Source: a phage. From it: 64,000 nt of DNA. The stretch lies in the sequence record OZ346205.1, one strand, 5' to 3'. The translations under genes were made by a program, and so were the position numbers. Below, piece by piece: positions 4,376-61,555 of this stretch. Numbering within the stretch: position 1 is the first letter of the stretch; every line of letters begins with the position of its first letter. The notes beneath the pieces were generated by a model. It ran no database searches. It was not told the DNA's origin and saw only the letters and a list, made by a program, of their open reading frames with translations.

Positions 4376-6799
4376 ATGAGTATGTGGTCTTTCGATTTTG
4401 AGTCATCCGGTTTGCTGGAAGACCCAGATCTTTATTATCACTGCGGTCTGTTTAAAGAGCTGAATAAGAACCGTTTTATGCTGTTCCTTCCTCTAAATGA
4501 CCGCACACACTACTCCGAGGAGGATATAGAAAAGGCTAAGAACTTCATTCTGTCAAAGAAAACTCTTTATAAAGATTTTGAAGTTCGCATAGCAGATTTT
4601 TCGGAGTTGGAAGGTTGGCTTACAGGCAATTCTGACTGGTCACCAACAGCTTTGAACTGCCATAACTGCTACAGTTATGACTTTATGCTAATGGAAAGAT
4701 TATCCGGTATTCATTTTGATATGTTCCGTGATCCTAAATGCATGGGGACTATCAACGACCACCAGGTTAACCTGTTTGATACGTTGGCTATGAGCCGAAT
4801 CTTGTGGCCTGATCGCCCTTTACCAAAAGGTTGTCCGGACGCTGTATTCAACCCGGTTACTAAGAAAATGCAACCTGTTGGTCCTCACGGCCTTATGGCA
4901 TGGGGCTACGCCCTTGGTAACCAGAAAGTTCAAATTGATGACTGGCGCGATCTTCCGTTGTGGAAGTATGTGGATCGTGTATTCGAGGACGTTATCATCC
5001 AGGAGCTGCTCTGGAAAGAGCTGGTAGCGGAATCAAAAGGTGTATTCTACGGCAAATCTGACATGCAGAACTTTATGTACGATCCAGCCAAAGAGAAGCC
5101 GAAAGGGTTCAAGAAGATCACCTGGAAGAACGCATTACGTCGAGGCATGCTGCAGCACTTCCTGATGGAGCTGCAGGCCCGTCAGGGTGTATACTTCGAC
5201 ATAGATGGAGCTATTGCTTTACGTGACCGTTGCGATGCGTGGATGAAAGAAATCGCTGATCGTGTTGAACCACAACTACCTTTAAAAGAGCTGTCAATGT
5301 CTCAGCGGCCCAAGTTCCCTGAAAAGCCGTTTAACCAAGACGGGACAATCTCTAATAATGGTTGGAAATGGTTAAAAGATAAGCTTGGCTATCCTGTAGA
5401 CATGAGTGCTTTAGAGTTCAAAGCCCCGCCTAAGCGAGCATTTACCTCTACAGGAGATGTCAGCAAGATGGGGATAAAATGGTGTGAAGAGATGGGCTGC
5501 AAAGACCCCGATAAGATGGCTGATTTCTTGAGAGGCTATATTAAGGGCACCTCCACACCACAACCCTTACCTAAAGAGCTGATGGATCAGGCAATAAGTG
5601 ATCTGCAGCAGAAGCGAATGCCTGACTGCAAGATACCTATGAAAATCAGCAATCAGGACGACATCAAGCGATACCTAATCAGTGCTGGTTGGCTCCCAAC
5701 AATGTGGAGAACTAAAGATGTAACTAAAGACAGCAAGAAGAAAGCTTTACCTGATGCAGATGTTGATGCACGAGTATATGCATATATGGACGAGCTTTTG
5801 GAGTCAGAGTATTGTGACCTAATTATCAACTTCTGGAACAAAACTGATGCTAAGTTCCAGACAACCGTGCACAAGTTCCGAAGCTTTCCTAACTCCGAAA
5901 GGATTAAAAAGGAAGTATTCGGGAAAATACGTAGAAAAGCCAGGGCACTTATTACTTCTCCGCAACTGAAAGATACGTTTGGACACCTATGCCCAAATCT
6001 TGAAAAATTGAACGGAGAGATGGCTAAAGATATCGTCTTGTGGTTATCATTGCGAAACCGCAGATCGGTCCTTGATCCAATCAAGGAGGATAAGGTTGAT
6101 ACTGGTCTTCTTAATCACCCACGTTTGAAGATTGACCATAAGCTTCCTGCTAAAAGCTCTGGATTAACAAACACTTCCAGACAGAAACACAGTATTTGTG
6201 CAAACATGCCTAAACCATCTCCTAAAGTGGTTATGGGTAAAGAGATGCGTAGTCTGTGGGGTGTTCCTCCGGGATACTTTGAGATCGGTATTGACGGGTC
6301 CAACTTAGAGCAGCTTATCGGGGCTTGGGGTGCCTTTGAGTTCGACAACGGCCTGTATTATGATGTTGTAAGTAACGGAGACGCACACCAAAACAATGCT
6401 GAGGCATATACAAAAGTGGCAGGCAGAGAGGTGTCCCGTAACGACGGTAAACCTATCACGTATGGGGTTATGTACGGGGCACAAAAAGATAAAGTTGCAG
6501 ATATGTTGGACATCTCCCCAGAGTTGGGACAAAGGGTAATCGATGCACTCTGGGATGCCAACCCAGGTCTTAAGGGGCGCAAAGAGGATCTGGAGAAATT
6601 CTGGGAAGCAACAGGTAAGAAGTTTATCTACTCTTTTGATGGTCATGCTATCTGGACCCGATCTAAACACTCTTTACTTAATGCATACCAACAAAATGGC
6701 GGTGCATCGTTGTGTGACTTAGTTGGAATACTCATGCACCACCAGATGGTGAAGCGTGGGTGGTACGATGAAGGTGTTCGTCGTATTATTTATTACCAT
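4376..6799 (+). CDS. DNA polymerase, family A (Pol I-like), exon 1
   Basis: 3'-5' exo motif FDFESSG; motif A IDGSNLEQ; motif B R..GKPITYGVMYG; frame ends ...RRIIYYH just before motif C. Confidence 0.8.
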
Positions 6800-7075
6800 A
6801 AATAACATTGTGGCTTCATAGAGTAATCTATGTCGAATAACCTCTTTAACTGCGGGAAGCCTAAACCTTATGGCAAGGTAATCCGCAACGAAGCGCTCAA
6901 AAGAGCGAACGCTCAGAGGCCATTCCGAAAGGAAGTAGACCAGCAAGTGCGGTCGAAATGGGAGGATTCCTGTGGTTGCTTATCATAGGAATATGAGATG
7001 GTCCGATCCTACGTGAAAACGTATGGCTATGCACGTAATGGTGCGGGGTAGCTTAACGACCTACCTGAACTATTG
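6800..7075 (+). mobile_element. group I intron (no ORF) splitting DNA polymerase motif C
   Basis: P-like ACTGCGGGAAGCC (6848), Q-like AATCCGCAACG (6880), S-like GAGATGGTCCG (6995); follows exonic U, ends in G; exon junction YYH|DE restores motif C. Confidence 0.65.
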
Positions 7076-7429
7076 GATGAGTACCAACTTCAAGTGCCTG
7101 ACACACCGAAGTATAAGACTGTGTACACCTTCGACACAATTGAAGAACTGGAAGCATTTAAGGCAGAGCAGGAAGCCAAACTTCATGTGTTCGACGGTCA
7201 TAAGTACAAAAAGGCACGCAAGGATGAGGACGGAAACGAAGTGGTTGACAGAGACGGAAACACGGTGTACGATCCTATCCTGAACGATGACGGAAAGCTT
7301 GAACTTATCTGGAGCCCTGTGGGTGAAATGGTGGTACATTGCTTCTGGCAAGCTTCTAAAATGATGGGAGTCCCGTTCCAGATCACAGGTGAATACTTGT
7401 GTGGTCGTAATTGGGGTGATTGTCACTAA
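7076..7429 (+). CDS. DNA polymerase, family A, exon 2 (C-terminus)
   Basis: Begins DEYQ (motif C completion); ends ...GRNWGDCH like Pol I ...GENWDQAH. Confidence 0.7.
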   Translation, partial: DEYQLQVPDTPKYKTVYTFDTIEELEAFKAEQEAKLHVFDGHKYKKARKDEDGNEVVDRDGNTVYDPILNDDGKLELIWSPVGEMVVHCFWQASKMMGVPFQITGEYLCGRNWGDCH

Positions 7430-9913: not shown

Positions 9914-10159
9914 ATGACTGAAGCAGTTGCTCGCGCAGGACAGAAAGTACGTTGTGTTGAAGTAGGTTTTGGTGGCAAAGGGTGTCAAAACTTGACTCAA
10001 GGCAAGGAATATGCTGTTATCTCTGGTGGTGGCGACGAAAGTATTGTGTTCGAGGGTCACATCCTGGATGCTGAAAACTTTGAAATCTTTGACGACGATG
10101 GGGATCCGATCACCTGCCTGCTGGACGGGAATTGGGGAACTTTCGAAGTGATTGGCTAA
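9914..10159 (+). CDS. hypothetical protein
   Basis: AGGAGA RBS. Confidence 0.55.
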   Translation: MTEAVARAGQKVRCVEVGFGGKGCQNLTQGKEYAVISGGGDESIVFEGHILDAENFEIFDDDGDPITCLLDGNWGTFEVIG

Positions 10160-10242
10160 CAAATACCTATTGTAATTTACAGAAGGGGATGCTAAAATAG
10201 TGTCTCCTTCTATGTTGTTCAAATAAAATCGGAGATTCCATA

Positions 10243-10611
10243 ATGGAACAAATGAACGATCAAGAGTCGGTTGCGATGAACGAGCAAGAACAACCTCAAG
10301 AATTTTTCTTAGGGTTAAGTAAAGATCAAGTGTCTCTTTTGCTAGTGCTTTCTTCTTTCATGGGAAGACTTCAGGAGCTCACACAACAACCGGAGGCTGA
10401 ACAATTATTTCAGGCTCTGCGTGAAGAAGAAAAATATCGTCGTTTGGACTATGCCTTAGGTTGGGTAGCTCAACAACGAGATATGCTGATGGCCCTCTCT
10501 GGGACCACAAGTTTTGCAATGGGCCTGTTGGCTCAAGTTCAGGACAAATTAATTCAAGCAGGGTTTGCACACACGGCAAACACTAACGAAGAACAAGGAG
10601 ACAAAGAATGA
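10243..10611 (+). CDS. hypothetical protein
   Basis: GGAGAT RBS; preceded by terminator-like hairpin at 10168-10215. Confidence 0.5.
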   Translation: MEQMNDQESVAMNEQEQPQEFFLGLSKDQVSLLLVLSSFMGRLQELTQQPEAEQLFQALREEEKYRRLDYALGWVAQQRDMLMALSGTTSFAMGLLAQVQDKLIQAGFAHTANTNEEQGDKE

Positions 10612-11822
10612 GCGTTATTCAACAATTCGCTAACCCGATGAATCCGCGTGAAACTGTTTTACTGGCTCACGGCATGATTAAACGCGTCAGCATCAAGCCT
10701 ATCAAAGGTGCTGATCCTACAACAGGTATTAAAACCACTGTGTGGCAAGGTAAGAAAATTGAATCCAGCCACACCATCTCTTTACTGATTTCTGAACTGG
10801 ATTCCTCTGATAACCTACTTCAAGGTGGTGAAGAAGTTTGGATCAGTATGGGCGATAAGCTGCTTAAACCGGGTCATCAAGACTCTGTCTCTGTTAAAAT
10901 TGATGACAAGTGGGAAACCGTAACGCCAGGATGGATCGTAAATATTCCTTTGAAGGCAAACGAGCATAACGGTAAGACCTATTACAAAGGCTCACTGGCT
11001 AAGATGGTTAAGCTGGGTGTAGGAGAGGCTCCAGCAGCGACTCAGCAGCAAAAACAGCAACAAGGTGTACAATCACAAGGCCAGAAGCAGAATGCCAATC
11101 AGGACGTTTTACGCATCTATGGCGATGTGACTCAGATTGTTGGCAACGTGGTTACTGTCAATGACCACAAGATTGGCGAAGGTGCTATGGTTGTCACCGA
11201 TGAGCAGCTTAAAGATCTGGTGGTAGGTGGTCGTGTTGCAGCCATTGTTGACAAAGACACCGGAAACATTATCAGTGGTTTCAAAGCCTACCCCCCTAAG
11301 GCAGAGAACGGCACTCAAGGCTCCGGTGGCAAGCGTAAATCCTCTTACGACCCTATCGGTGTGGAAACGGGGCATAGCATCAATGCGTTGCAGATCATCC
11401 TGGATCGCGGGTTTAAGGTAGACGACCCACTGGGCGTGGCTAAAACACTGCACGTAGTCACCATTGAGCTTAAGAAAGAGTATGCTCAGGCCACCAACCG
11501 AACTGAAGATGAAGTAGGTGCCAGTGTCGGTAATGCGGTGTTGAACGCTTGTCGCCGTATTGACAAGAAAACGAAAGTTGATGATTTTGCAGCGGCAATT
11601 ACTGCAGAAGCAAAAGATGTCTTGACTAATCTGGCTGAGCCGTTGTACGATTGGATCAAGAACGGTGCTGGGTCAACTGACCATCAAGAACCTCAGGCTA
11701 CCAAACAGGAAGCAGCTCCACAGCAAAACACTGTAGACGCTCCTCCTGTAAATGATGAGGAAGATGACCCAATGGATCAGAATCCAGCACAGTACTCCTT
11801 TGATGATGACATCCCTTTTTAA
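10608..11822 (+). CDS. SSB-like protein with canonical SSB C-terminal tail
   Basis: C-terminus ...FDDDIPF matches the E. coli SSB tail; Q-rich linker; AAGGAGA RBS; OB-fold not verifiable by eye. Confidence 0.5.
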   Translation: MSVIQQFANPMNPRETVLLAHGMIKRVSIKPIKGADPTTGIKTTVWQGKKIESSHTISLLISELDSSDNLLQGGEEVWISMGDKLLKPGHQDSVSVKIDDKWETVTPGWIVNIPLKANEHNGKTYYKGSLAKMVKLGVGEAPAATQQQKQQQGVQSQGQKQNANQDVLRIYGDVTQIVGNVVTVNDHKIGEGAMVVTDEQLKDLVVGGRVAAIVDKDTGNIISGFKAYPPKAENGTQGSGGKRKSSYDPIGVETGHSINALQIILDRGFKVDDPLGVAKTLHVVTIELKKEYAQATNRTEDEVGASVGNAVLNACRRIDKKTKVDDFAAAITAEAKDVLTNLAEPLYDWIKNGAGSTDHQEPQATKQEAAPQQNTVDAPPVNDEEDDPMDQNPAQYSFDDDIPF

Positions 11823-11838
11823 CAATTAGTTAACATAG

Positions 11839-11866
11839 CCCTGCCCGAAAGGGTGGGGCATTTTTA
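11839..11866 (+). terminator. rho-independent terminator
   Basis: CCCTGCCC-GAAA-GGGTGGGG then CATTTTT; same hairpin as at 1441. Confidence 0.6.
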
Positions 11867-11884
11867 TATAAGGAGATCTGAAAA

Positions 11885-12301
11885 ATGACATTAGAAGATA
11901 TCATTGTTAAACCTGAGAACTATGACCAATACAACCTGTCAACTCAATCTGTAGACCTTGGATGCGCCACGGTCAGTGCGTGGCCGGTTAACGGAAAAGA
12001 GCTAGATAAATGCTTAGAAGCTCACATGTCTATTAACAAGTTTCTGGATGAAAATACTCACTGGCTTGAGGGTGCAGGAGTATATGCTTCATGGTTGGAG
12101 AGTATGGGATTCGACTACCAATCTGAAGAAGGGTGGTGGAGCTATTTAGCTATCTGTCCAGAGACGCTACAATGCTTCATGAAATACTCTGAAGATTTAG
12201 AGTACCGGGCGGTGGTTGATAGTGCTATTGCCCGTTATAGCCGTAAACCTTTTTCCCACGACATTAAAACTGTGGAAGAGTTTGTTGAAGTTTTCTGTTG
12301 A
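11885..12301 (+). CDS. hypothetical protein
   Basis: AAGGAGA RBS. Confidence 0.55.
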   Translation: MTLEDIIVKPENYDQYNLSTQSVDLGCATVSAWPVNGKELDKCLEAHMSINKFLDENTHWLEGAGVYASWLESMGFDYQSEEGWWSYLAICPETLQCFMKYSEDLEYRAVVDSAIARYSRKPFSHDIKTVEEFVEVFC

Positions 12302-12397
12302 CACAGGTTGAAAGGTGTGCAATTATAACTTCATATGACTGGAGGACGTGATGAACGAAGAAAACTGGGATGTATAACTAACAGGAGGCCACTGCCC

Positions 12398-12595
12398 ATG
12401 ATTTATCGAATCCGTGTAAGAGAAGATGCACCAGGCTGTTACTTTGACTGGCGTGGGTGGTGGTTTCTCCACCCAATGGATGGACTCACAGATAGAATGC
12501 TGGATGCTGCCCTTTATACAGATACCGACATAGAGTATAATCTCTATCTGAAGGACGGTATAGATAACGGCCTGTTTGAAGCAATTCCTGTGTAA
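12398..12595 (+). CDS. hypothetical protein
   Basis: ORF 12335..12595; start moved to ATG 12398 after AGGAGG. Confidence 0.45.
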   Translation: MIYRIRVREDAPGCYFDWRGWWFLHPMDGLTDRMLDAALYTDTDIEYNLYLKDGIDNGLFEAIPV

Positions 12596-12663
12596 GAGAC
12601 TGTGATAGCTATGTTTTATGATCTTCCTGTAGCGCCACCACCTGTTGAACCCGGAGAACTAAG

Positions 12664-13089
12664 ATGATCTATGAAATGCCAAAACTGATTCGTGACGATG
12701 CCCAAAACGCTCACACCATTATTATGGGCAAACGCATGGATATTATTTGTCATAAAGATTTCTGGGAAGGAAGTTACTTCACAGAGTATTTTGGTAAACT
12801 GGATAATGGTCTGCTGATCCAGTTCTACACCGATGCGGAAAACAACATTCCCTGGGAGTTCGAAACTGAAGATATTCATAAACTTTTCACCTTCCTCGAT
12901 ATTAAGGTTAAGGCCAAGTTTGAAGAGGGTGAGTGCGACGATTGTGGATTTTATGAGGTAACAGATTTCTATCTTCCAAGTGGTAAGAACCTTTACTATG
13001 AAAGCCACTTCGGTAACTCAAATATGCCACAGTGCTGGACTGAGTTTTTTGAAATTGTGGAAGAGGAGCTGGCATATCGTGATTATTGA
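12664..13089 (+). CDS. hypothetical protein
   Basis: GGAGA RBS. Confidence 0.5.
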   Translation: MIYEMPKLIRDDAQNAHTIIMGKRMDIICHKDFWEGSYFTEYFGKLDNGLLIQFYTDAENNIPWEFETEDIHKLFTFLDIKVKAKFEEGECDDCGFYEVTDFYLPSGKNLYYESHFGNSNMPQCWTEFFEIVEEELAYRDY

Positions 13090-13537
13090 TACTGTAGAGG
13101 GAGATTTAATCTCCCTTTTTAAGAGCGGTGCTGGTCACCTGATCCACGGTTGTAACTGCTTCCACACAATGGGTAAGGGTGTAGCAAAACAGATTGCCCG
13201 TGAGTTCCCTCAAGCATTGGAAGCTGATAAAATGACTATGCACGGTTGCCTAAGTAAACTGGGCGCGTTCTCCCGCTGGGAGCACTTATCTCCGAGAGGT
13301 ATTGTCTACGGAATAAATCTGTATACTCAGTTCTACCCAGGGCCTAATGCTGAATATTTCTCAATACTGAAAGGCTTTGAGCGAGTCAATGAAGTATTTG
13401 AGGGGTCGATTTTACCATTCTACATCCCTAAGATCGGGTGCGGCATAGGTGGTTTGAAGTGGGAACATGTAGAGGACATTATTAACCTTGCCACTTTTGA
13501 TATAGATATTATCGTGGTGGAGTACAAAGAGTGTTGA
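13079..13537 (+). CDS. macro-domain protein (ADP-ribose / Appr-1''-p processing family)
   Basis: IIDTVEGDLISL...HLIHGCNCFHTMGKGVAKQI resembles macro-domain N-terminus (GDIT...NAAN..GGGV..AI); GTG start after GAGGAG. Confidence 0.5.
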   Translation: MIIDTVEGDLISLFKSGAGHLIHGCNCFHTMGKGVAKQIAREFPQALEADKMTMHGCLSKLGAFSRWEHLSPRGIVYGINLYTQFYPGPNAEYFSILKGFERVNEVFEGSILPFYIPKIGCGIGGLKWEHVEDIINLATFDIDIIVVEYKEC

Positions 13538-13591
13538 CAGCTATATTTTAAGATGGTATAGTCGCCACAACGATTAAGACAGAGGAGCACT

Positions 13592-13786
13592 ATGGAGACT
13601 AAAATCTTAATTCTAGCTGTGATAGATACAACAGAAGGAGCCATGTTTGAATCTGCAGGAGGGTATTTCTACCTGCCCTATGGAAAAAGAACTTCCGAGC
13701 CGAGTAAAGATTCAATCCTTAAAGTGTTCCCGTGTGCTTTCTGGCTGGAGATCTTGGTAGAAGATTGCAGAGGACTAGGGAGATAA
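13592..13786 (+). CDS. hypothetical protein
   Basis: GAGGAG RBS; promoter TTGACA-N17-TATAGT at 13537-13565. Confidence 0.5.
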   Translation: METKILILAVIDTTEGAMFESAGGYFYLPYGKRTSEPSKDSILKVFPCAFWLEILVEDCRGLGR

Positions 13787-13788
13787 TT

Positions 13789-13983
13789 ATGAGAAACAAG
13801 AAAGAGCTTTACTCTGGTGAGTGGATAAACGATCAACAGGTAGGAGAGGTAACCTGCTTCCGGTGCTTTACTAGGTACAATCTTAAAACTGCACCAAAAA
13901 GTGTTCCAAAGACTGACGGTTATTACATAAAAGAACCTCATTGCCCAAAATGCAAATGCCGATTATACTGGAGTAACCTGTAA
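13789..13983 (+). CDS. zinc-ribbon protein
   Basis: ATG 13789 after GGGAGA; CFRC ... CPKCKC cysteine pairs. Confidence 0.5.
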   Translation: MRNKKELYSGEWINDQQVGEVTCFRCFTRYNLKTAPKSVPKTDGYYIKEPHCPKCKCRLYWSNL

Positions 13984-13987
13984 AAGA

Positions 13988-14015
13988 TTGACATCTGAAA
14001 ACTGCGGTGTATAAT
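13988..14015 (+). promoter_or_regulatory. sigma70-like promoter
   Basis: TTGACA - 16 nt - TATAAT. Confidence 0.55.
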
Positions 14016-14046
14016 ATAAACATAAACTAGCAGAGAGTGATATATT

Positions 14047-14238
14047 ATGGTAATTTTTAATCGAGACGGTATCATAGTTAGACAGCACCCATTCCTTGAA
14101 TACTATCAAATTGAGCAATGGTGCTACGGGGATTGCAGTCACTCCTATGGGCAAAGTTGGGGATATCGCACAGTTTTTGAATCAACAGATCTTGATAAGG
14201 TAAGACAGAAAGTTTTAGAACTTATTAACAACAAGTGA
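14047..14238 (+). CDS. hypothetical protein
   Basis: ORF with GAGAGTGA upstream. Confidence 0.45.
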   Translation: MVIFNRDGIIVRQHPFLEYYQIEQWCYGDCSHSYGQSWGYRTVFESTDLDKVRQKVLELINNK

Positions 14239-14245
14239 GTATGAT

Positions 14246-14581
14246 ATGGTAACATTAGAAAGACGTAAAGCTATCGCCGCCACACTGGCAGACATCTTTT
14301 GGGAGTGCAATTTAAAAGATACCCGATATTGTGGCGCATCTGTAGATGCATTATTCCCACGGCCCACTATTGTTGCAATGGGAAACCTGTCAAACGTGGT
14401 GTATGGAGCATGGGACAAAGAAGGTGGATTTTATATCTGGCAACCTGACTACGGGACCTGGAAAGAGGTAAGGGGTGCGGATGACTTTGGGCCTGCAGTT
14501 GCCAAAACGATGGATGGCTGGAAAATCTATGTCGGTAACGACATGAAGCTGAAAGGCGAGATTGTTTACTGGTTACCTTAA
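14246..14581 (+). CDS. hypothetical protein
   Basis: ORF track; weak RBS. Confidence 0.45.
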   Translation: MVTLERRKAIAATLADIFWECNLKDTRYCGASVDALFPRPTIVAMGNLSNVVYGAWDKEGGFYIWQPDYGTWKEVRGADDFGPAVAKTMDGWKIYVGNDMKLKGEIVYWLP

Positions 14582-14602
14582 TAAAACGCAGGAGATAAAG
14601 TT

Positions 14603-14848
14603 ATGAACAAAGGGTGGACATTTGTAGACGGCGTTAAAAACATGCCTCTAGGAAAGTATATTGTAGCCATGGCAGATGAGAATGGCAAGGTGGATTTCGG
14701 AGTTTGCGAGGTTGTTCTTGCAGGATCTGGTGACTATGCTCACAAAACTGGGATAATTAACGGTCATTTCTACTTTGATTACAACCCTGTTGTGGCGTAT
14801 ATGGCTATGCCAGAGTTCGAGCTCCCAAAGGAGGGTGCGGATGTTTAA
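14603..14848 (+). CDS. hypothetical protein
   Basis: AGGAGA RBS. Confidence 0.5.
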   Translation: MNKGWTFVDGVKNMPLGKYIVAMADENGKVDFGVCEVVLAGSGDYAHKTGIINGHFYFDYNPVVAYMAMPEFELPKEGADV

Positions 14849-15038
14849 GCTTAAATCTGCATGGAACATCGCTGTGGGGGACGAGATCCGCATCCCAGGT
14901 GGAAAGACCATTATGAAGATATCTCGTATCGAGTACGAAGGTGATCGTGTATTTCATATCTTTGCAGAAGATGGTCGAGAAATTTATATACAGGCAGGCT
15001 CTCACATCTATATTCGTAAGAAAGGGGACGACAAATGA
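14841..15038 (+). CDS. hypothetical protein
   Basis: ORF 14775..15038; ATG 14841 after AAGGAGGG. Confidence 0.5.
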   Translation: MFKLKSAWNIAVGDEIRIPGGKTIMKISRIEYEGDRVFHIFAEDGREIYIQAGSHIYIRKKGDDK

Positions 15039-15364
15039 CAGAGATCATCATTTCAACTGCAGGGTATGTGTTCCTGACAATCATTGCACTGACCATTCTG
15101 GTGGTGGTATATGGAATTGTTATTCTCCCTATTCTTGAGACAATTAGTTTGTGTCGGTGTTGGAGAAAGGCTTACGGTCCACAGCCGTGGAAGGACTGGC
15201 CCCACCTGGTGCACATAGCGTTCTCTTATGCTTATGATCACGCCAGCAGTGCATGCATAACCGGGTATCACGCCCACAACTGGAGCTGGGAAGGGTTGAG
15301 GAAATGGAATGTTACAAAGACCATACCTCTGCGCATGTACAAACCTAAAAACAAAGACAGCTGA
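15035..15364 (+). CDS. membrane protein
   Basis: AAAGGGGA RBS; N-terminal hydrophobic helix. Confidence 0.55.
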   Translation: MTEIIISTAGYVFLTIIALTILVVVYGIVILPILETISLCRCWRKAYGPQPWKDWPHLVHIAFSYAYDHASSACITGYHAHNWSWEGLRKWNVTKTIPLRMYKPKNKDS

Positions 15365-15395
15365 TACTTGAAAATCCCTGGCATATCAAGTGTAA

Positions 15396-15433
15396 GGAGG
15401 ATTTCTAAAATGGATTTCCTCCTTTTGATATTT
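15396..15433 (+). terminator. rho-independent terminator
   Basis: GGAGGA ... TCCTCC stem followed by TTTTGATATTT. Confidence 0.5.
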
Positions 15434-15677
15434 CACCGGGCCAGATATTTTAAAATTCTTAGAAAATCAGAAAATGGATCGAAAACTAAAATGGATTTTT
15501 CAAGACAGGCACGATAAGATGTGCTGCTCATTCTATCGTTCGCACCGTACTTTAAGTCACTATTCCAGATTTTTCCGCACATACTCTCACCCTTCTACCA
15601 GAACTTTCCCAGCTTACCTCTGACCTTTTATAACAATAAGTCCATTATTATCAGAAAGTTTCGGCACATCTCTTTCG

Positions 15678-15872
15678 GTACTCGATCTGTTTTTCATTTC
15701 AAAGACCTGATTTTCTGAAAATTTTTCTCGATAAATTTCTTAGTACTCGATCTGTTTTTCATTTCAAAGACCTGATTTTCTGAAAATTTTTCTCGATAAA
15801 TTTCTTAGTACTCGATCTGTTTTTCGTTTTCTGAATCGGATTTTCTGGAAATCGTTCCAGCTCTCGACCTGA
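15678..15872. repeat. tandem direct repeat, 65-bp unit x3 (third copy divergent)
   Basis: GTACTCGATCTGTTTTTCATTTCAAAGACCTGATTTTCTGAAAATTTTTCTCGATAAATTTCTTA repeated at 15678, 15743, 15808. Confidence 0.8.
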
Positions 15873-16030
15873 AATTTTTGGGGACGAAATCGATTTTTCG
15901 TTTTCAGAAATGGATTTTTAAAATTTCTATATGGGAATATTTTATGGGATACTGTTTTATAGGAAATTGTTACGGAGGGTAATTAGCATGCTAATTAAAT
16001 TTATTAAATGCGAGGAGTTCTCATTTAGAA

Positions 16031-16260
16031 TTTTGAATGATAATCATTCTCGTTTGCAGAATAACGGGCAGGCCCGGTGATTGTCTCCCGGCCCCTACTG
16101 CCCCGGCTTGTTATTATAGTATCACACAGGACAAAGAAAGCAAGGATTTTTTGCATAAATTTTTAAATGATAATGATAACCGTTCTCATTTTATGCAGCG
16201 CCCATCCCCGGTGGTTGTCTCCCCCGTCACCGGTGCCTGCCGTCCTTTCGATAGGTATAT
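16031..16260. repeat. twin GC-rich hairpin elements with conserved loop
   Basis: Two copies (about 16031-16110 and 16160-16260) share AATGATAAT ... GCAG ... CCGGTG(A/G)TTGTCTCCC ... CTGCC, each a long GC stem. Confidence 0.5.
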
Positions 16261-16446
16261 CGTGCCACCTGGCGGGGCCGCTGTCAACACTTTTCAAAAA
16301 ATTTTTCTAACCTGATGCGCTAACCGCTGCAACCTGGCGGGGTCAGCCTGGCAGGACCTAACTGACCGGGTAGGAGAGAATGAAGGCTTGTAAACCTGGT
16401 GGGCCTATGCTACAGGATAGGTAACAATTGAAGAGGAGGTACAAAA

Positions 16447-16614
16447 ATGAAAGGTAATATGATCCCCCTAGAAAATGTAGCTATTAATGACGCTGAGGCT
16501 ATCGCCCTGGTTGAAAAGGCTATGGCGGGAGCGTTGGAACATAAAGAAGAGTACGAAAAATGGTGGTTAACCTGGCGGGGGCGGCAGGTGGATTCTATCA
16601 TAAAAATAATTTAA
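16447..16614 (+). CDS. small protein (55 aa)
   Basis: Below the 60-aa track cut-off; GAGGAGG 7 nt before ATG. Confidence 0.45.
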   Translation: MKGNMIPLENVAINDAEAIALVEKAMAGALEHKEEYEKWWLTWRGRQVDSIIKII

Positions 16615-16700
16615 AATAGTCGTTGACAACAAGGTTAATCATGGTATTATTACCCTACAAGGTGAACAACACCGCACTAACCAGTAAAGAGGATAAATTT

Positions 16701-16898
16701 ATGAACGCATACGGGATCAAAGTACGTCGCAACACTCGCCAGGTGGTCACCAATCAAGTGATTTGCCGGGTGGATGTAACCATCAACAACGGGCAAGGCC
16801 TTTATAAATTTCGTCGCGGTCATAGCTATACCCTGCAACAGCTTAATCGTTGCGCCCTGACAAAAGGTCAGATCAACCATTGGTTTAATAAAAAATAA
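16701..16898 (+). CDS. hypothetical protein
   Basis: ORF 16623..16898; ATG 16701 after AAAGAGGA; upstream promoter TTGACA/TATTAT. Confidence 0.5.
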   Translation: MNAYGIKVRRNTRQVVTNQVICRVDVTINNGQGLYKFRRGHSYTLQQLNRCALTKGQINHWFNKK

Positions 16899-16962
16899 GT
16901 ATTGACATACAGTCCGACACCAAATACACTAAAAGCACAAAAGACACTAAGAGGATAAAATC

Positions 16963-17361
16963 ATGAAAACCACTACCTTTAATTTTGATAATGCAGACTT
17001 TTCTTTTTCTGATGTCAAGAACTGCCGCCGTGATCGTGGATTTTACAAGGCTTATAATCTGGTGGGCCTGGACGATGACAATAATTTGCACGAAGTAGCT
17101 GAGATCCGGTATTATGCCGCCGCCAGCGGTAACACTAACTACTGCGTTTTTTGGATACACGACAACAAGAACAATAAGTACGGTTATACTGGTGGCAAGG
17201 CGAGCGGTCACGGTTACGATAAAGCTAATGCAGCACTTGAGAGCGCATTAAATGCTATGGGGATCACTGCCAACGGCTGGATCTATGAAGAAGAGTTTTT
17301 GTCGGCACTTGCTGACCACCTGGGCTATAAAAAGCACATTGTAACATGCGCCCACGAATAA
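16963..17361 (+). CDS. hypothetical protein
   Basis: AAGAGGA RBS; promoter TTGACA-N17-TACACT upstream. Confidence 0.55.
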   Translation: MKTTTFNFDNADFSFSDVKNCRRDRGFYKAYNLVGLDDDNNLHEVAEIRYYAAASGNTNYCVFWIHDNKNNKYGYTGGKASGHGYDKANAALESALNAMGITANGWIYEEEFLSALADHLGYKKHIVTCAHE

Positions 17362-53952: not shown

Positions 53953-54666
53953 TTAAATATACTCTGCTACATCCTTGAAGCTCGAAGGCTTCATGATCTT
54001 ACCTTTACTGTCAAGGAATATGATAACTTTATTACCGTTGTAGAATTCTTCCTTAGCAACAAAACCTTCATATCGACCATCAAAGCGTCGCTCAAGATCT
54101 TTAATCTCCAACTCTATGAGTTGTTCAGCAGGCATATCTGCACTGGCACCGTGTGAATACCGTAGATGGTTGACCCGTGCAAACTTGCTGTCATTCGATT
54201 TGAGAACCTTACGCATCATCCCGCACACATCGCCGCGAAGCTGGAACAGCAAAGCTGTTGACAACTCCGCTAAACGGTAAGCTGACGCTCTTTGCTTGGA
54301 TGTGTTTTTCGCAGCGATCAGTGTGTCATAGAACTCACCGATCTTGAACTTAAGACCTCGTGGATTATCAAACAGGTTTGACCACTTTTCGTGATTGTCA
54401 TTAACAAGATAAGCTGCATAACTTGTGACAACGTGAAGATCGCAGGCCTCCTTTAGCAGGTGATCTCCACCATCACCTTTCTCCAGCTCTTCCAAAACTT
54501 CATTGAACTCTTCCTCAATGAAGCTAAGCTGTAATTCGAATGGTGTGTATGATTTTTTCACTTTAGCTGCCACACGGTTCCAGTTTTCCACCCAGTTGGC
54601 AGACCAAAGGTAGTTTTCAGGTTGGGATAGTTTTTCCAGGTTGTCAATTAATTTAGTATTCAGCAT
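53953..54666 (-). CDS. MazG-like NTP pyrophosphohydrolase domain protein
   Basis: EEEFNEVLEELEKGDGGDHLLKEACDL resembles the MazG E..E..E...E.GD...E metal-binding helix. Confidence 0.4.
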   Translation of the reverse strand: MLNTKLIDNLEKLSQPENYLWSANWVENWNRVAAKVKKSYTPFELQLSFIEEEFNEVLEELEKGDGGDHLLKEACDLHVVTSYAAYLVNDNHEKWSNLFDNPRGLKFKIGEFYDTLIAAKNTSKQRASAYRLAELSTALLFQLRGDVCGMMRKVLKSNDSKFARVNHLRYSHGASADMPAEQLIELEIKDLERRFDGRYEGFVAKEEFYNGNKVIIFLDSKGKIMKPSSFKDVAEYI

Positions 54667-54679
54667 TAAAGGTCTCCTT

Positions 54680-55441
54680 TTAAAGTTCCATAAAGTTTTC
54701 TACAGTCTCAATGAATGTTTTATCAGAGAAGGCATCAACCGCACCGTTAAACCAAACTGGGATGCCACGATCCTCATACTGGTAAATATCACTACGTGAA
54801 ATGCCATTCTCCTCTAGATGCTGTGAGTCGTATTTATTAACGATCAGTAGTTTGGTTCCCTTATTGCAGGCAGGGAATAGCTCCCAGTTAAAATTGATAA
54901 CTGTGTTGGAGCACCCTACAAGGATAACCATATCATTGCTCGTAAGAGAAGTCAACAGGTCATACATGTCTGTATACTTCGGAGCTACTTCTCCGAAGAA
55001 CACCACATTAGGCTTAACCCAGGTATACTTTCCTGCGTCTACCTCAGAGTATCCAATGTCCTTAATGACGTCACTTCCTTCATCGTCCTCATAGACTATT
55101 TCTGGCAAATACCCGTGGACATGTAAAATATCTTCATGTTTTACACCAGCACGCTCCAGCAAATCATCTACATTGGTGGTAAGGTTGATCACACGACCAG
55201 ACCAGCGGGAATACCACTCAGCGATCCGAAGATGTGCAAGGTTAGGCTCAACACTGCCTAAAGCTACACGACGTGCATTGTAAAAGTCATGCACCTTATA
55301 GTAGTTCTTGGCAAAGGTGTGGATGTTGCACACCTCATCGATGCTGAAATTCTCCCACATTGCAGTGCTACCAGATCGGAAAGTGGGAATACCAGATTCA
55401 GCGCTCAAACCAGCACCGGAGATAATAATCAGTCGTCGCAT
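54680..55441 (-). CDS. Sir2-family NAD-dependent protein (sirtuin-like)
   Basis: GAGLSAESGIPTFR, TTNVDDL, catalytic HG (LHVHGY), FFGE; no Zn-ribbon cysteines. Confidence 0.7.
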   Translation of the reverse strand: MRRLIIISGAGLSAESGIPTFRSGSTAMWENFSIDEVCNIHTFAKNYYKVHDFYNARRVALGSVEPNLAHLRIAEWYSRWSGRVINLTTNVDDLLERAGVKHEDILHVHGYLPEIVYEDDEGSDVIKDIGYSEVDAGKYTWVKPNVVFFGEVAPKYTDMYDLLTSLTSNDMVILVGCSNTVINFNWELFPACNKGTKLLIVNKYDSQHLEENGISRSDIYQYEDRGIPVWFNGAVDAFSDKTFIETVENFMEL

Positions 55442-60742: not shown

Positions 60743-60817
60743 GCCCTGTTAGCTTAGTGGATAAAGCAGCGGCCTTCTAAGCCGTTGACACTGGTTCGAG
60801 TCCAGTACGGGGTGCCA
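60743..60817 (+). tRNA. tRNA-Arg (anticodon UCU)
   Basis: Cloverleaf by eye: acceptor GCCCTGT/ACGGGGT, anticodon loop CTTCTAA, T-loop TTCGAGT, encoded CCA. Confidence 0.8.
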
Positions 60818-60821
60818 AATT

Positions 60822-60908
60822 GGGGAGTTATCCCGTAGAGGTAGCGGTGTAGACTGTAAATCTATTGTCATTGCGACTCGGGTGGTTCGACTCCACCACT
60901 CCCCACCA
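60822..60908 (+). tRNA. tRNA-Tyr (anticodon GUA)
   Basis: Acceptor GGGGAGT/ACTCCCC, anticodon loop CTGTAAA, long variable arm, T-loop TTCGACT, CCA. Confidence 0.75.
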
Positions 60909-61022
60909 AATTTATATTTTTAGATGCATAAATAATACAGATAATGGCATTGATATTTATCGTCGTTTATACTAGTCACTAACTGCTCGAAAATCAGTGT
61001 CATTATCAGTATAATTTATAAA

Positions 61023-61113
61023 GGAGGGTAGGGAGCAATGGTGCTCAAGCGGTATTGAAAACCGTCCCGTTGAGGATGACTCGATGATGGTTCGATTCCA
61101 TTACTCTCCGCCA
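61023..61113 (+). tRNA. tRNA-Ser (anticodon UGA)
   Basis: Acceptor GGAGGGT/ACTCTCC, anticodon loop ATTGAAA, long variable arm, T-loop TTCGATT, CCA. Confidence 0.65.
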
Positions 61114-61211
61114 CATTGTTGACCTTGTAATTAAGCGAAAGCCGGAAGCAGAACCGGATTATCAAATGTTACAGTCGTCATCGCCGACTAGCAACATGGT
61201 CAACATACTGA

Positions 61212-61310
61212 GCTAGGTAAGCCCTTTGGCAAGGGCGAGGATTTTTAATCCTGAAAATAGACGAGGTAGTCGTTGAATACATAGGTGGTTCGATTCCATC
61301 ACCTAGCACC
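61212..61310 (+). tRNA. atypical tRNA-like gene (99 nt; anticodon loop TTTTTAA, UUU?)
   Basis: Acceptor GCTAGGT/ACCTAGC, D-arm GCCC...GGGC, T-arm GGTGG-TTCGATT-CCATC, but 30-nt extra region and imperfect anticodon stem. Confidence 0.4.
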
Positions 61311-61315
61311 TTTTT

Positions 61316-61391
61316 GCTGATGTAGCACAATCGGTAGTGCAATTGATTTGTAATCAATAGGTTGTAGGTTCAAGTCCTGCCATCAGCACCA
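61316..61391 (+). tRNA. tRNA-Thr (anticodon UGU)
   Basis: Acceptor GCTGATG/CATCAGC, anticodon arm ATTGA-TTTGTAA-TCAAT, CCA. Confidence 0.8.
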
Positions 61392-61392
61392 A

Positions 61393-61467
61393 GGCCCTGT
61401 AGCTGGAAGGTTCAAGCAAGCGACTCATAATCGCCAGACGGTGGTTCAATTCCACCCAGGGCCACCA
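61393..61467 (+). tRNA. tRNA-Met (anticodon CAU; could be Ile-lysidine type)
   Basis: Acceptor GGCCCTG/CAGGGCC, anticodon loop CTCATAA, T-loop TTCAATT, CCA. Confidence 0.75.
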
Positions 61468-61478
61468 AATAGTAAATA

Positions 61479-61555
61479 CTCCGCGTAGCTCAGCTTGGTA
61501 GAGCGCCTGATTTGGGATCAGGAGGTCGAGTGTTCGAATCACTCCGTGGAGACCA
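61479..61555 (+). tRNA. tRNA-Pro (anticodon UGG)
   Basis: Acceptor CTCCGCG/CGTGGAG, D-arm GCTC...GAGC, anticodon arm CCTGA-TTTGGGA-TCAGG, T-loop TTCGAAT, CCA. Confidence 0.8.

What the first reader, a model, noticed from the sequence alone, without database searches (positions are those of the whole stretch)
13079..13537. Macro-domain protein in the early region, possible partner of the Sir2/RNA-repair genes
Macro domains bind or hydrolyse ADP-ribose derivatives, including Appr-1''-p made by NAD-dependent 2'-phosphotransferase in tRNA ligation, and commonly pair with sirtuin-like ADP-ribosyltransferases. The same genome encodes a Sir2-like protein and an RNA ligase/kinase/phosphatase set 40 kb away. 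Together they suggest an ADP-ribose-centred pathway, either RNA repair or reversal of host ADP-ribosylation defence.
Basis: inference. Interest (0 to 1): 0.5.

Follow-up and report, generated by a model that had tools for sequence, protein, structure and literature searches.

The report
Phage macrodomain, likely anti-DarT2 DNA de-ADP-ribosylase
This is a real, conserved 152-residue macrodomain gene of an rV5-like E. coli phage, a homologue of phage T4 Tk.4 (AdfM), so it most likely strips ADP-ribose off phage DNA to defeat the bacterial DarTG2 defence rather than working with the phage's Sir2/RNA-repair genes.

Summary
Window 13079-13537(+) encodes a 152-aa macrodomain protein with a conserved GTG start and an AGGAG Shine-Dalgarno. 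It passes the Pfam Macro threshold, folds confidently (pLDDT 95.5) and is under purifying selection (dN/dS about 0.21). Several related rV5-like phage records (genus Vequintavirus) already annotate it as a macro domain protein or phosphatase.

The protein belongs to the ALC1/TARG1-like macrodomain class. It is 41% identical over its full length to T4 Tk.4. A November 2025 preprint found tk.4 to be the T4 gene needed to grow on DarTG2 hosts and named it AdfM.

The family carries an Asn26/Gln84 active site, with Gln in 244 of 248 members and never Lys. This matches Streptomyces SCO6735, a proven thymidine-ADP-ribose DNA hydrolase, and differs from the Lys of DarG, TARG1 and PhiKZ AdfM.

The proposed Sir2/RNA-repair partnership is not supported:
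- The Sir2, MazG, RNA ligase, kinase and phosphoesterase module is real but lies 40 kb away on the other strand.
- About 85% of phage records with this macro gene lack the Sir2.
- About 60% of Sir2 carriers lack the macro gene.

This is a new member of a known kind, of modest interest.

The parts
13079..13537 (+). Macrodomain CDS, 152 aa, GTG start and TGA stop. Tk.4/AdfM-type ALC1-like macrodomain.
13062..13068 (+). Shine-Dalgarno AGAGGAG, 10 nt before the GTG, lying inside the end of the upstream ORF.
   Evidence: Sequence read. GAGGAG and the GTG are conserved in HdK5 and APECc02.
13145..13186 (+). Loop 1 (H23-A36: HGCNCFHTMGKGVA), with Asn26 encoded at 13154-13156. It is the equivalent of DarG N22 and SCO6735 N27.
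   Evidence: Alignments. N26 is present in 246 of 248 family members.
13316..13345 (+). NLYTQFYPGP motif, with Gln84 encoded at 13328-13330. Gln84 sits at the position of the catalytic Lys80 (DarG) and Lys84 (TARG1) and of Gln85 in SCO6735.
   Evidence: Gln in 244 of 248 members and never Lys. The role of Gln85 in SCO6735 is described in PMC9411070.
13427..13453 (+). Loop 2 (P117-G125: PKIGCGIGG), the diphosphate-binding glycine-rich loop.
12664..13089 (+). Upstream ORF of 141 aa and unknown function. Its stop overlaps the macro start by 11 nt, so the two are probably translationally coupled and co-transcribed.
   Evidence: PHROG 8157, function unknown.
12298..12326 (+). Sigma70-like promoter (TTGACA, 17-nt spacer, AATTAT, with TG). 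It lies downstream of the terminator-like hairpin at 11838-11859 and is the probable start of the unit that contains the macro gene.
   Evidence: consensus match only.
13534..13562 (+). Sigma70-like promoter (TTGACA, 17-nt spacer, TATAGT, with TG). Its -35 hexamer contains the macro stop codon, and it would drive the next small ORF (13592-13786).
   Evidence: consensus match only.

Best explanation
The gene encodes a stand-alone ALC1/TARG1-like macrodomain enzyme, the rV5-like-phage counterpart of T4 Tk.4 (AdfM). It is probably made early from host-type promoters. It binds ADP-ribose attached to thymidine in single-stranded phage DNA, the mark laid down by the bacterial DarT2 toxin of DarTG2 systems, and hydrolyses the ribose-base bond. 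This releases free ADP-ribose and restores DNA that can be replicated and packaged, so the phage escapes DarTG2 abortive defence.

The chemistry is most likely the SCO6735 type. Asn26 holds Gln84 in place, Gln84 positions the distal ribose, and an activated water does the work. This differs from the Lys-based mechanism of DarG and TARG1.

Shown here: the gene, its fold, its class, its homology to Tk.4 and its Asn/Gln motif. Inferred: the substrate, the anti-DarTG2 role in this phage and the timing of expression.
For: 1. Full-length homology to T4 Tk.4: 41% identity, E=7e-43, with the same HGCNCFHTMG, NLYTQFxPGPN and IGxGIG motifs (T4 annotation).
2. In a T4 transposon screen on a DarTG2 host, tk.4 was the single significant hit, and a clean knockout sensitised T4 to DarTG2. 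The gene was named adfM (bioRxiv 10.1101/2025.11.20.689424).
4. Thymidine-ADPr removal from DNA has been shown for DarG, TARG1 and SCO6735, and the authors propose it as a unifying function of this class (PMC9411070).
5. Gln84 and Asn26 align with SCO6735 Gln85 and Asn27. Mutating either abolishes or nearly abolishes dT-ADPr hydrolysis (PMC9411070). Both residues are nearly invariant in 248 family members.
6. A second, unrelated phage macrodomain, PhiKZ gp104, removes DarT2 marks in vitro and protects against DarTG2 (PMC13309987). The strategy is therefore established in phages.
7. Promoter-like sites are twice as frequent as expected in 10-17 kb (27 against 13.6), and several near-consensus sites on the + strand flank the gene. 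This fits early expression.
8. dN/dS of about 0.21.
Against: - No experiment exists on this protein or on any rV5-like phage. The Bas54 (Vequintavirinae) transposon library in the same preprint was not reported on DarTG2.
- The T4 result is genetic, comes from a preprint, and has no biochemistry for a Tk.4-type enzyme.
- At 41% identity the substrate range could differ. Enzymes of this class are promiscuous: TARG1 and SCO6735 also act on Glu/Asp-linked protein ADP-ribose.
- The family lacks the five-residue longer 'mobile loop' of the SCO6735/BT1257 subclass, so it is not simply an SCO6735 copy.
- Bacterial members of the family are not next to DarT. In 45 loci, no DarT appeared among conserved neighbours or among 91 neighbouring proteins scanned with PADLOC. 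Genomic context therefore gives no independent support.
Confidence: 0.65

Rival explanations
1. It is a broader or different ADP-ribose eraser. It would remove ADP-ribose from proteins (Glu/Asp-linked) or from RNA, countering other ADP-ribosylating defences such as an mRNA-modifying toxin or other host transferases, or it would tune a phage-encoded transferase. DarT2-modified DNA would be at most one substrate among several.
For: TARG1 and SCO6735, the closest characterised relatives, act on both DNA and protein substrates (PMC9411070). The family is very widespread: 2,742 of 50,697 phage records and 1,129 clusters at E<=1e-30. This includes hosts where DarTG2 prevalence is unknown. Johannesman et al. 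raise the possibility that such erasers also counter other DNA or RNA ADP-ribosylating defences.
Against: In the T4 screen tk.4 was the single significant hit on DarTG2. SCO6735 clearly prefers DNA over protein substrate in competition. No ADP-ribosyltransferase domain was detected among the 49 ORFs scanned in 7-35.5 kb.
Confidence: 0.2
2. The macrodomain would process a small ADP-ribose by-product, either ADP-ribose-1''-phosphate or its cyclic precursor, or O-acyl-ADP-ribose. The by-product would come from the phage Sir2 acting like KptA/Tpt1 within the Sir2, MazG, RNA ligase, kinase and phosphoesterase RNA-repair module.
Against: The loci are 40 kb apart on opposite strands. About 85% of macro carriers lack the Sir2, and about 60% of Sir2 carriers lack the macro gene. 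In the 60 records sampled, the T4-like phages had the macro gene alone and the T5-like phages the Sir2 alone. The excess co-occurrence can be explained by a few large-phage clades. [quoted passage not shown] T4-type ligation produces no 2'-phosphate (established knowledge).
Confidence: 0.08
3. It acts mainly without catalysis, either by binding and blocking DarT2 directly or by sequestering an ADP-ribose-derived immune signal.
For: Catalytically dead SCO6735 (Q85A), DarG (K80A) and TARG1 (K84A) still inhibit DarT in vitro, with SCO6735 the strongest (PMC9411070).
Against: Near-invariance of the catalytic-site Asn and Gln across 248 members argues that chemistry is under selection. The protein lacks the C-terminal DarT-binding domain of DarG: it is 152 aa and matches only positions 3-143 of the 338-position DarG model.
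Confidence: 0.05

Closest known systems
T4 Tk.4 = AdfM (anti-DarT factor macrodomain; bioRxiv 10.1101/2025.11.20.689424)
   Same: Stand-alone protein of about 150 aa. 41% identity over the full length, E=7e-43. Identical HGCNCFHTMG, NLYTQFxPGPN and IGxGIG motifs including Asn and Gln. Carried by a large virulent E. coli phage among small non-structural genes.
   Different: Different phage family (Straboviridae against Vequintavirinae) and different neighbours: vs and tk.3 in T4, against a Vequintavirus-specific ORF here. Loop 2 reads GAGIGKG in T4 and GCGIGGL here. The anti-DarTG2 phenotype is shown only for T4.
Streptomyces coelicolor SCO6735 and Bacteroides BT1257 (Gln-type ALC1-like macrodomains; PDB 5E3B, 2FG1/2AFC)
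   Different: Only 26-27% identity. The phage family lacks the five-residue longer mobile loop that defines that subclass. It has its own YTQFxPGP motif.
DarG antitoxin macrodomain of DarTG2 (PDB 5M3I, 5M3E, 7OMU)
   Different: Lys80 is replaced by Gln. There is no C-terminal DarT-binding domain. It is not encoded next to a DarT. It scores 47 bits against the 250-bit cut-off of the DarG model.
PhiKZ gp104 = AdfM of nucleus-forming phages (Cell Rep 2026, PMC13309987)
   Same: A phage-encoded stand-alone macrodomain of the same class, with the same proposed job of removing DarT2 marks from phage DNA.
   Different: Only 24% identity (E=2e-5 pairwise). It has the DarG-type Asn23/Lys78 site ('FPTKD'). 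It is a separate lineage that shares the name AdfM.
Yeast Poa1p (ADP-ribose-1''-phosphate phosphatase; PDB 6LFQ) and human TARG1/OARD1
   Different: TARG1 uses Lys84 and Asp125, which here are Gln84 and Gly124. The Poa1p substrate arises from Tpt1-dependent tRNA splicing, for which no enzyme was found in the window.

Membership tests
Macro domain superfamily (Pfam PF01661) | HMM match above the curated gathering score | tested here: met
   32 bits against a cut-off of 22, E=1.3e-7, model positions 1-118 of 118.
Macro domain superfamily (Pfam PF01661) | Three-layer alpha/beta/alpha macro fold with the two ADP-ribose-binding loops | tested here: met
ALC1/TARG1-like macrodomain class | Closest structural and sequence relatives are DarG, TARG1, SCO6735/BT1257 and Poa1p, not MacroD-type or viral-type domains | tested here: met
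T4 Tk.4 / AdfM family | Full-length sequence homology with shared motifs | tested here: met
   41% identity, E=7e-43, residues 1-150 against 1-152. tblastn hits fall on annotated tk.4 genes in several T4-like phages.
T4 Tk.4 / AdfM family | Required for growth on DarTG2-carrying hosts | not testable with these tools
   Shown only for T4. The Bas54 Vequintavirinae library was not reported on DarTG2.
DarG antitoxin (NCBIfam NF048014) | Equivalog score cut-off, and two-domain architecture with a C-terminal DarT-binding domain | tested here: not met
   47 bits against 250. Only model positions 3-143 of 338 are matched, and the protein is 152 aa.
DarG antitoxin (NCBIfam NF048014) | Catalytic Lys80 | tested here: not met
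   Gln84 occupies this column. No Lys in 248 family members.
DarG antitoxin (NCBIfam NF048014) | Encoded next to a DarT toxin gene | tested here: not met
   The phage neighbours are small ORFs of unknown function. Bacterial homologues also lack a DarT neighbour.
SCO6735/BT1257 subclass | Asn27 and Gln85 active-site pair | tested here: met
   N26 and Q84 align with them.
SCO6735/BT1257 subclass | Mobile loop five residues longer than in DarG and TARG1 | tested here: not met
   Alignment A3 shows a five-residue gap in the window protein and in T4 Tk.4 after the Gln. The feature is defined in PMC9411070.
SCO6735/BT1257 subclass | Hydrolysis of thymidine-linked ADP-ribose on ssDNA | not testable with these tools
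   Needs an enzyme assay.
Sirtuin-macrodomain (SirTM-type) gene pairs | Sirtuin and macro genes adjacent in one operon | tested here: not met
   The macro gene is at 13.1-13.5 kb (+) and the Sir2 at 54.7-55.4 kb (-). PMC9503650 notes no adjacent macro gene for this sirtuin clade.
Poa1p-type Appr-1''-p phosphatase pathway | A source of Appr>p or Appr-1''-p (KptA/Tpt1 with a 2H cyclic phosphodiesterase) in the same genome | tested here: inconclusive
   No PTS_2-RNA, 2H, Nudix or NADAR Pfam hit among the 49 ORFs of 7-35.5 kb, and none named in the 44-64 kb annotation of a relative. The rest of the phage genome was not scanned domain by domain. The Sir2 is only predicted to act like KptA.
Poa1p-type Appr-1''-p phosphatase pathway | Phosphatase activity on ADP-ribose-1''-phosphate | not testable with these tools
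   Needs an enzyme assay.

The most novel reading that the evidence does not exclude
The Tk.4/Vequintavirus macrodomains would form a third mechanistic subtype of ALC1-like enzymes, with an Asn/Gln site and a short loop carrying an invariant YTQFxPGP motif. Their substrate range would go beyond DarT2-marked DNA. Examples would be ADP-ribosylated RNA, or ADP-ribose by-products of the phage's own sirtuin-based RNA repair. In Vequintaviruses they would act together with the translationally coupled, lineage-specific upstream ORF (12664-13089) as a two-protein anti-defence unit.
Probability: 0.12. Interest if true: 0.55.

Novelty: new member of a known kind. Interest (0 to 1): 0.27.

Why it matters
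It assigns a likely counter-defence function to a gene that most rV5-like phage records list as 'hypothetical protein' or 'phosphatase'. Those phages are candidates for phage therapy and biocontrol, so knowing they probably carry an anti-DarTG2 factor helps predict host range.

The analysis also adds two points I did not find stated in the two AdfM papers as far as I searched them:
- The T4-type AdfM family uses the SCO6735-like Asn/Gln site, not the DarG Lys.
- The two proteins named AdfM (T4 Tk.4 and PhiKZ gp104) are separate lineages with different active sites.

Finally, it removes a tempting but unsupported link between the macro gene and the phage Sir2/RNA-ligase module.

Tried and rejected
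- Bacterial context. I searched 45 genomic loci encoding family members for a conserved DarT partner. Conserved neighbours are housekeeping genes: a class I aminoacyl-tRNA synthetase in 10 loci, lspA, and sigma70. A PADLOC scan of 91 neighbouring proteins found no DarT. Context therefore gives no independent support.
- Other ADP-ribose or NAD genes in the window. I scanned 49 ORFs of 7-35.5 kb for NADAR, ART, KptA, Nudix, 2H and Nampt and found none. The RefSeq annotation of relative APECc02 is mostly 'hypothetical protein' there and did not help.
- The upstream overlapping ORF as a possible partner. It has only four homologous clusters, too few for a useful structure prediction, so I dropped it.
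- A direct check that DarTG2-sensitive T5 lacks the macro gene. I fetched only the first 50 kb of T5 and stopped. I rely instead on the T5-like records sampled, which show the Sir2 hit only.
- LeRoux 2022 (PMC9250638) is not held, and my search did not find the Poa1p structure paper. The catalytic residues of Poa1p could not be compared, and statements about DarTG2 come from later papers.
- Literature searches for 'macrodomain' plus 'Vequintavirus' found nothing, and a search with 'macro domain', 'rV5', 'phage' and 'ADP-ribose' found no paper mentioning rV5.
- I rejected calling it a DarG (score, architecture, Lys and context all fail) or an SCO6735-subclass member (it lacks the long mobile loop).

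Full report
**What the window is.** The 5 kb around the finding matches about 120 phage records at 90-95% identity, nearly all rV5-like E. coli phages of the genus Vequintavirus. The 44-64 kb part matches the same group at up to 98.9%. The window is therefore part of an rV5-like myovirus genome of roughly 135-140 kb.

**The observation.**
- An ORF runs in frame through 13079-13537 on the + strand. Read from GTG 13079 it gives 152 residues beginning MIIDTVEGDL.
- The GTG and a GAGGAG ten bases upstream are identical in phages HdK5 and APECc02. HdK5 annotates exactly this 459-nt CDS as 'macro domain protein'. Every homologue starts at the same residue.
- The start overlaps the stop of the preceding 141-aa ORF (12664-13089) by 11 nt, so the two are probably co-transcribed and translationally coupled.
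- The protein passes the Pfam Macro threshold over the whole model (E=1.3e-7, 32 bits against 22) and matches PHROG 335 at 1e-60.
- An AlphaFold2 model built on 44 homologues has mean pLDDT 95.5.
- Against HdK5 and APECc02, dN/dS is about 0.21, and none of the 12-13 amino-acid differences touches the conserved loops.

**Which kind of macrodomain.**
- A single-sequence search of the PDB finds the M. tuberculosis DarG macrodomain first, followed by yeast Poa1p, Bacteroides BT1257 and Streptomyces SCO6735.
- A profile of the family hits DarG, SCO6735, TARG1, BT1257 and Poa1p about equally, at E of 1e-14 to 1e-17.
- NCBIfam and PADLOC both give DarG as the only hit. It covers only the macro half and scores far below the DarG cut-off, 47 bits against 250.
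- The protein therefore belongs to the ALC1/TARG1-like class.

**The active site.**
- In an alignment with reference proteins (consistent), Asn26 aligns with DarG Asn22 and SCO6735 Asn27.
- Gln84, in the motif NLYTQF, aligns with the catalytic Lys80 of DarG ('FPTKK'), Lys84 of TARG1 ('ITKK') and Lys78 of PhiKZ gp104 ('FPTKD'). It also aligns with Gln85 of SCO6735 and the equivalent Gln of BT1257 ('NMIGQH').
- In 248 family members gathered from two database searches, Asn26 is present in 246. Position 84 is Gln in 244 and never Lys.
- For SCO6735, Gln85Ala abolishes hydrolysis of thymidine-linked ADP-ribose on DNA and Asn27Ser nearly abolishes it. A water-mediated mechanism has been proposed (PMC9411070).
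- The phage family lacks the five-residue longer 'mobile loop' that defines the SCO6735/BT1257 subclass. It is a distinct Gln-type subgroup with its own YTQFxPGP motif.

**The key homologue.**
- A translated search of 50,697 phage records finds the family in 2,742. Many of these are T4-like phages, where the hit falls on gene tk.4 next to vs.
- The window protein is 41% identical to T4 Tk.4 over the full length (E=7e-43), with the same motifs including Asn and Gln.
- A November 2025 preprint used a genome-wide T4 transposon library on a DarTG2-expressing host. It found tk.4 as the single significant conditionally essential gene, confirmed that a clean knockout becomes DarTG2-sensitive, and named the gene adfM (bioRxiv 10.1101/2025.11.20.689424).
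- Earlier work had shown that T4 lacking its other anti-DarT factors was still DarTG2-resistant (PMC11825919).
- Independently, the macrodomain gp104 of PhiKZ, also named AdfM, removes DarT2 marks from DNA in vitro and protects nucleus-forming phages (PMC13309987). That protein is only 24% identical to ours and is Lys-type. The two AdfM proteins are separate lineages.
- My term searches of the T4 preprint found no mention of catalytic residues.
- No test of a Vequintavirus macro gene against DarTG2 turned up. The Bas54 library in the same preprint was used on other hosts.

**Most likely mechanism.**
- DarT2 ADP-ribosylates thymidines in single-stranded DNA and blocks phage replication. The cognate DarG macrodomain removes the mark.
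- I propose that the window protein is made early and does the same on phage DNA, using the Asn26/Gln84 water-mediated chemistry.
- Early expression is suggested but not shown. The 10-17 kb stretch holds 27 sigma70-like promoter matches against 13.6 expected. These include near-consensus + strand sites at 12298, 13534 (overlapping the macro stop codon) and 13988 (a perfect consensus). A terminator-like hairpin lies at 11838.
- Confidence is 0.65, because the function rests on homology to one genetically tested protein and to one biochemically tested relative.

**The Sir2/RNA-repair idea.**
- The gene at 53953-54666, which several relatives call 'Sir2-like', is a MazG-like nucleotide pyrophosphohydrolase (PHROG 671).
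- Iyer and colleagues described this neighbourhood in phage V5 as a predicted sirtuin-based RNA-repair system. They noted that the sirtuin gene there is not coupled to an adjacent macro gene (PMC9503650).
- The module is 40 kb from the macro gene, on the other strand.
- For co-occurrence I searched with each protein alone and with the two concatenated. The macro gene is in 2,742 records, the Sir2 in 1,011, and either in 3,336. That gives about 375-415 records with both.
- This exceeds the roughly 55 expected by chance, but the excess can be explained by a few large-phage clades, rV5-like phages and their relatives. About 85% of macro carriers lack the Sir2, and about 60% of Sir2 carriers lack the macro gene. 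In the records sampled, T4-like phages had the macro gene alone and T5-like phages the Sir2 alone.
- No NADAR, ADP-ribosyltransferase, KptA, 2H or Nudix domain was found among the 49 ORFs of 7-35.5 kb.
- I give this rival 0.08. A broader or different ADP-ribose-erasing role on protein or RNA substrates gets 0.2, since this enzyme class is promiscuous. A mainly non-catalytic role gets 0.05.

**Independent context check.** 45 bacterial loci encode family members at 34-57% identity. They lie in ordinary chromosomal settings, ten of them directly downstream of a class I aminoacyl-tRNA synthetase. There is no DarT among conserved neighbours or among the 91 neighbouring proteins scanned. This neither supports nor contradicts the proposal. 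It shows that the family consists of orphan macrodomains, like SCO6735.

**Family size.** A profile search of 1.84 billion representatives finds 1,129 clusters at E<=1e-30 and 10,196 at E<=1e-10. Nearly all of the best hits are stand-alone proteins of about 150-170 residues.

**Verdict.** Several relatives already annotate the gene as a macrodomain protein, and its T4 homologue now has an assigned function. It is a new member of a known kind, of modest interest. The useful additions are the Gln-type active site shared with T4 AdfM and the recognition that two unrelated lineages carry the name AdfM.

Noticed in passing
window 6790-7025 (+): A group I intron (Rfam RF00028, 64.7 bits against a gathering score of 50) lies between the DNA polymerase ORF 4376-6805 and a 118-aa ORF at 7073-7429, which is probably the polymerase C-terminal exon. 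In relative APECc02 the polymerase is split at the same place and an HNH endonuclease gene sits there. The window copy appears to lack that endonuclease gene.
   Followed up: partly
window 61212-61310 (+), within the tRNA cluster 60743-61555: There are seven tRNA genes: Arg-TCT, Tyr-GTA, Ser-TGA, Thr-TGT, Met-CAT, Pro-TGG and one odd 99-nt tRNA-like gene. ARAGORN reads the odd one with a four-base anticodon 'atcc', and it scores only 35.5 bits in Rfam. A relative annotates it as tRNA-OTHER.
   Followed up: no
window 53953-54666 (-): Several related records annotate this gene as 'putative Sir2-like protein'. It has no Sir2 Pfam match and hits PHROG 671, a MazG-like nucleotide pyrophosphohydrolase, at 5e-22. 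The true Sir2 is the next gene, 54680-55441.
   Followed up: yes
window 12664-13089 (+): This 141-aa ORF of unknown function (PHROG 8157) has a stop that overlaps the macro start by 11 nt. Only four homologous clusters exist among 5.8 billion proteins, apparently all from close rV5-like relatives. It could be a lineage-specific partner of the macrodomain, or simply a neighbour.
   Followed up: partly
window 10000-17000, mainly + strand: Sigma70-like promoter matches are dense here, 27 against 13.6 expected. They include a perfect TTGACA-16-TATAAT at 13988-14015 and one at 13534-13562 whose -35 hexamer contains the macro stop codon. This suggests many short host-polymerase-driven units.
   Followed up: partly
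window 7000-35500: Pfam hits among otherwise unannotated ORFs include a ribosome hibernation factor domain (Ribosomal_S30AE, 9e-12), PhoH, a ClpP-like protease and a radical-SAM/4Fe-4S protein. The last is probably an anaerobic ribonucleotide reductase activase. The batch scan does not say which ORF carries which domain.
   Followed up: no
loci L006-L050 (bacterial homologues of the macro family); T4 locus L003: In 10 of 45 bacterial loci the macro gene lies about 70 nt downstream of a class I aminoacyl-tRNA synthetase gene (IleRS-like), and lspA is nearby in some. In T4 the homologue tk.4 lies next to vs, the valyl-tRNA synthetase modifier. This may be coincidence.
   Followed up: partly
window 13079-13537 compared with relatives: This early region is only about 94% identical in DNA to the best relatives, while 44-64 kb is up to 98.9% identical. 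Macro alleles closest to the window's (60% identity or more) spread from about 60% to over 99% protein identity across phage records. The locus seems to evolve or recombine faster than the replication and structural genes.
   Followed up: no
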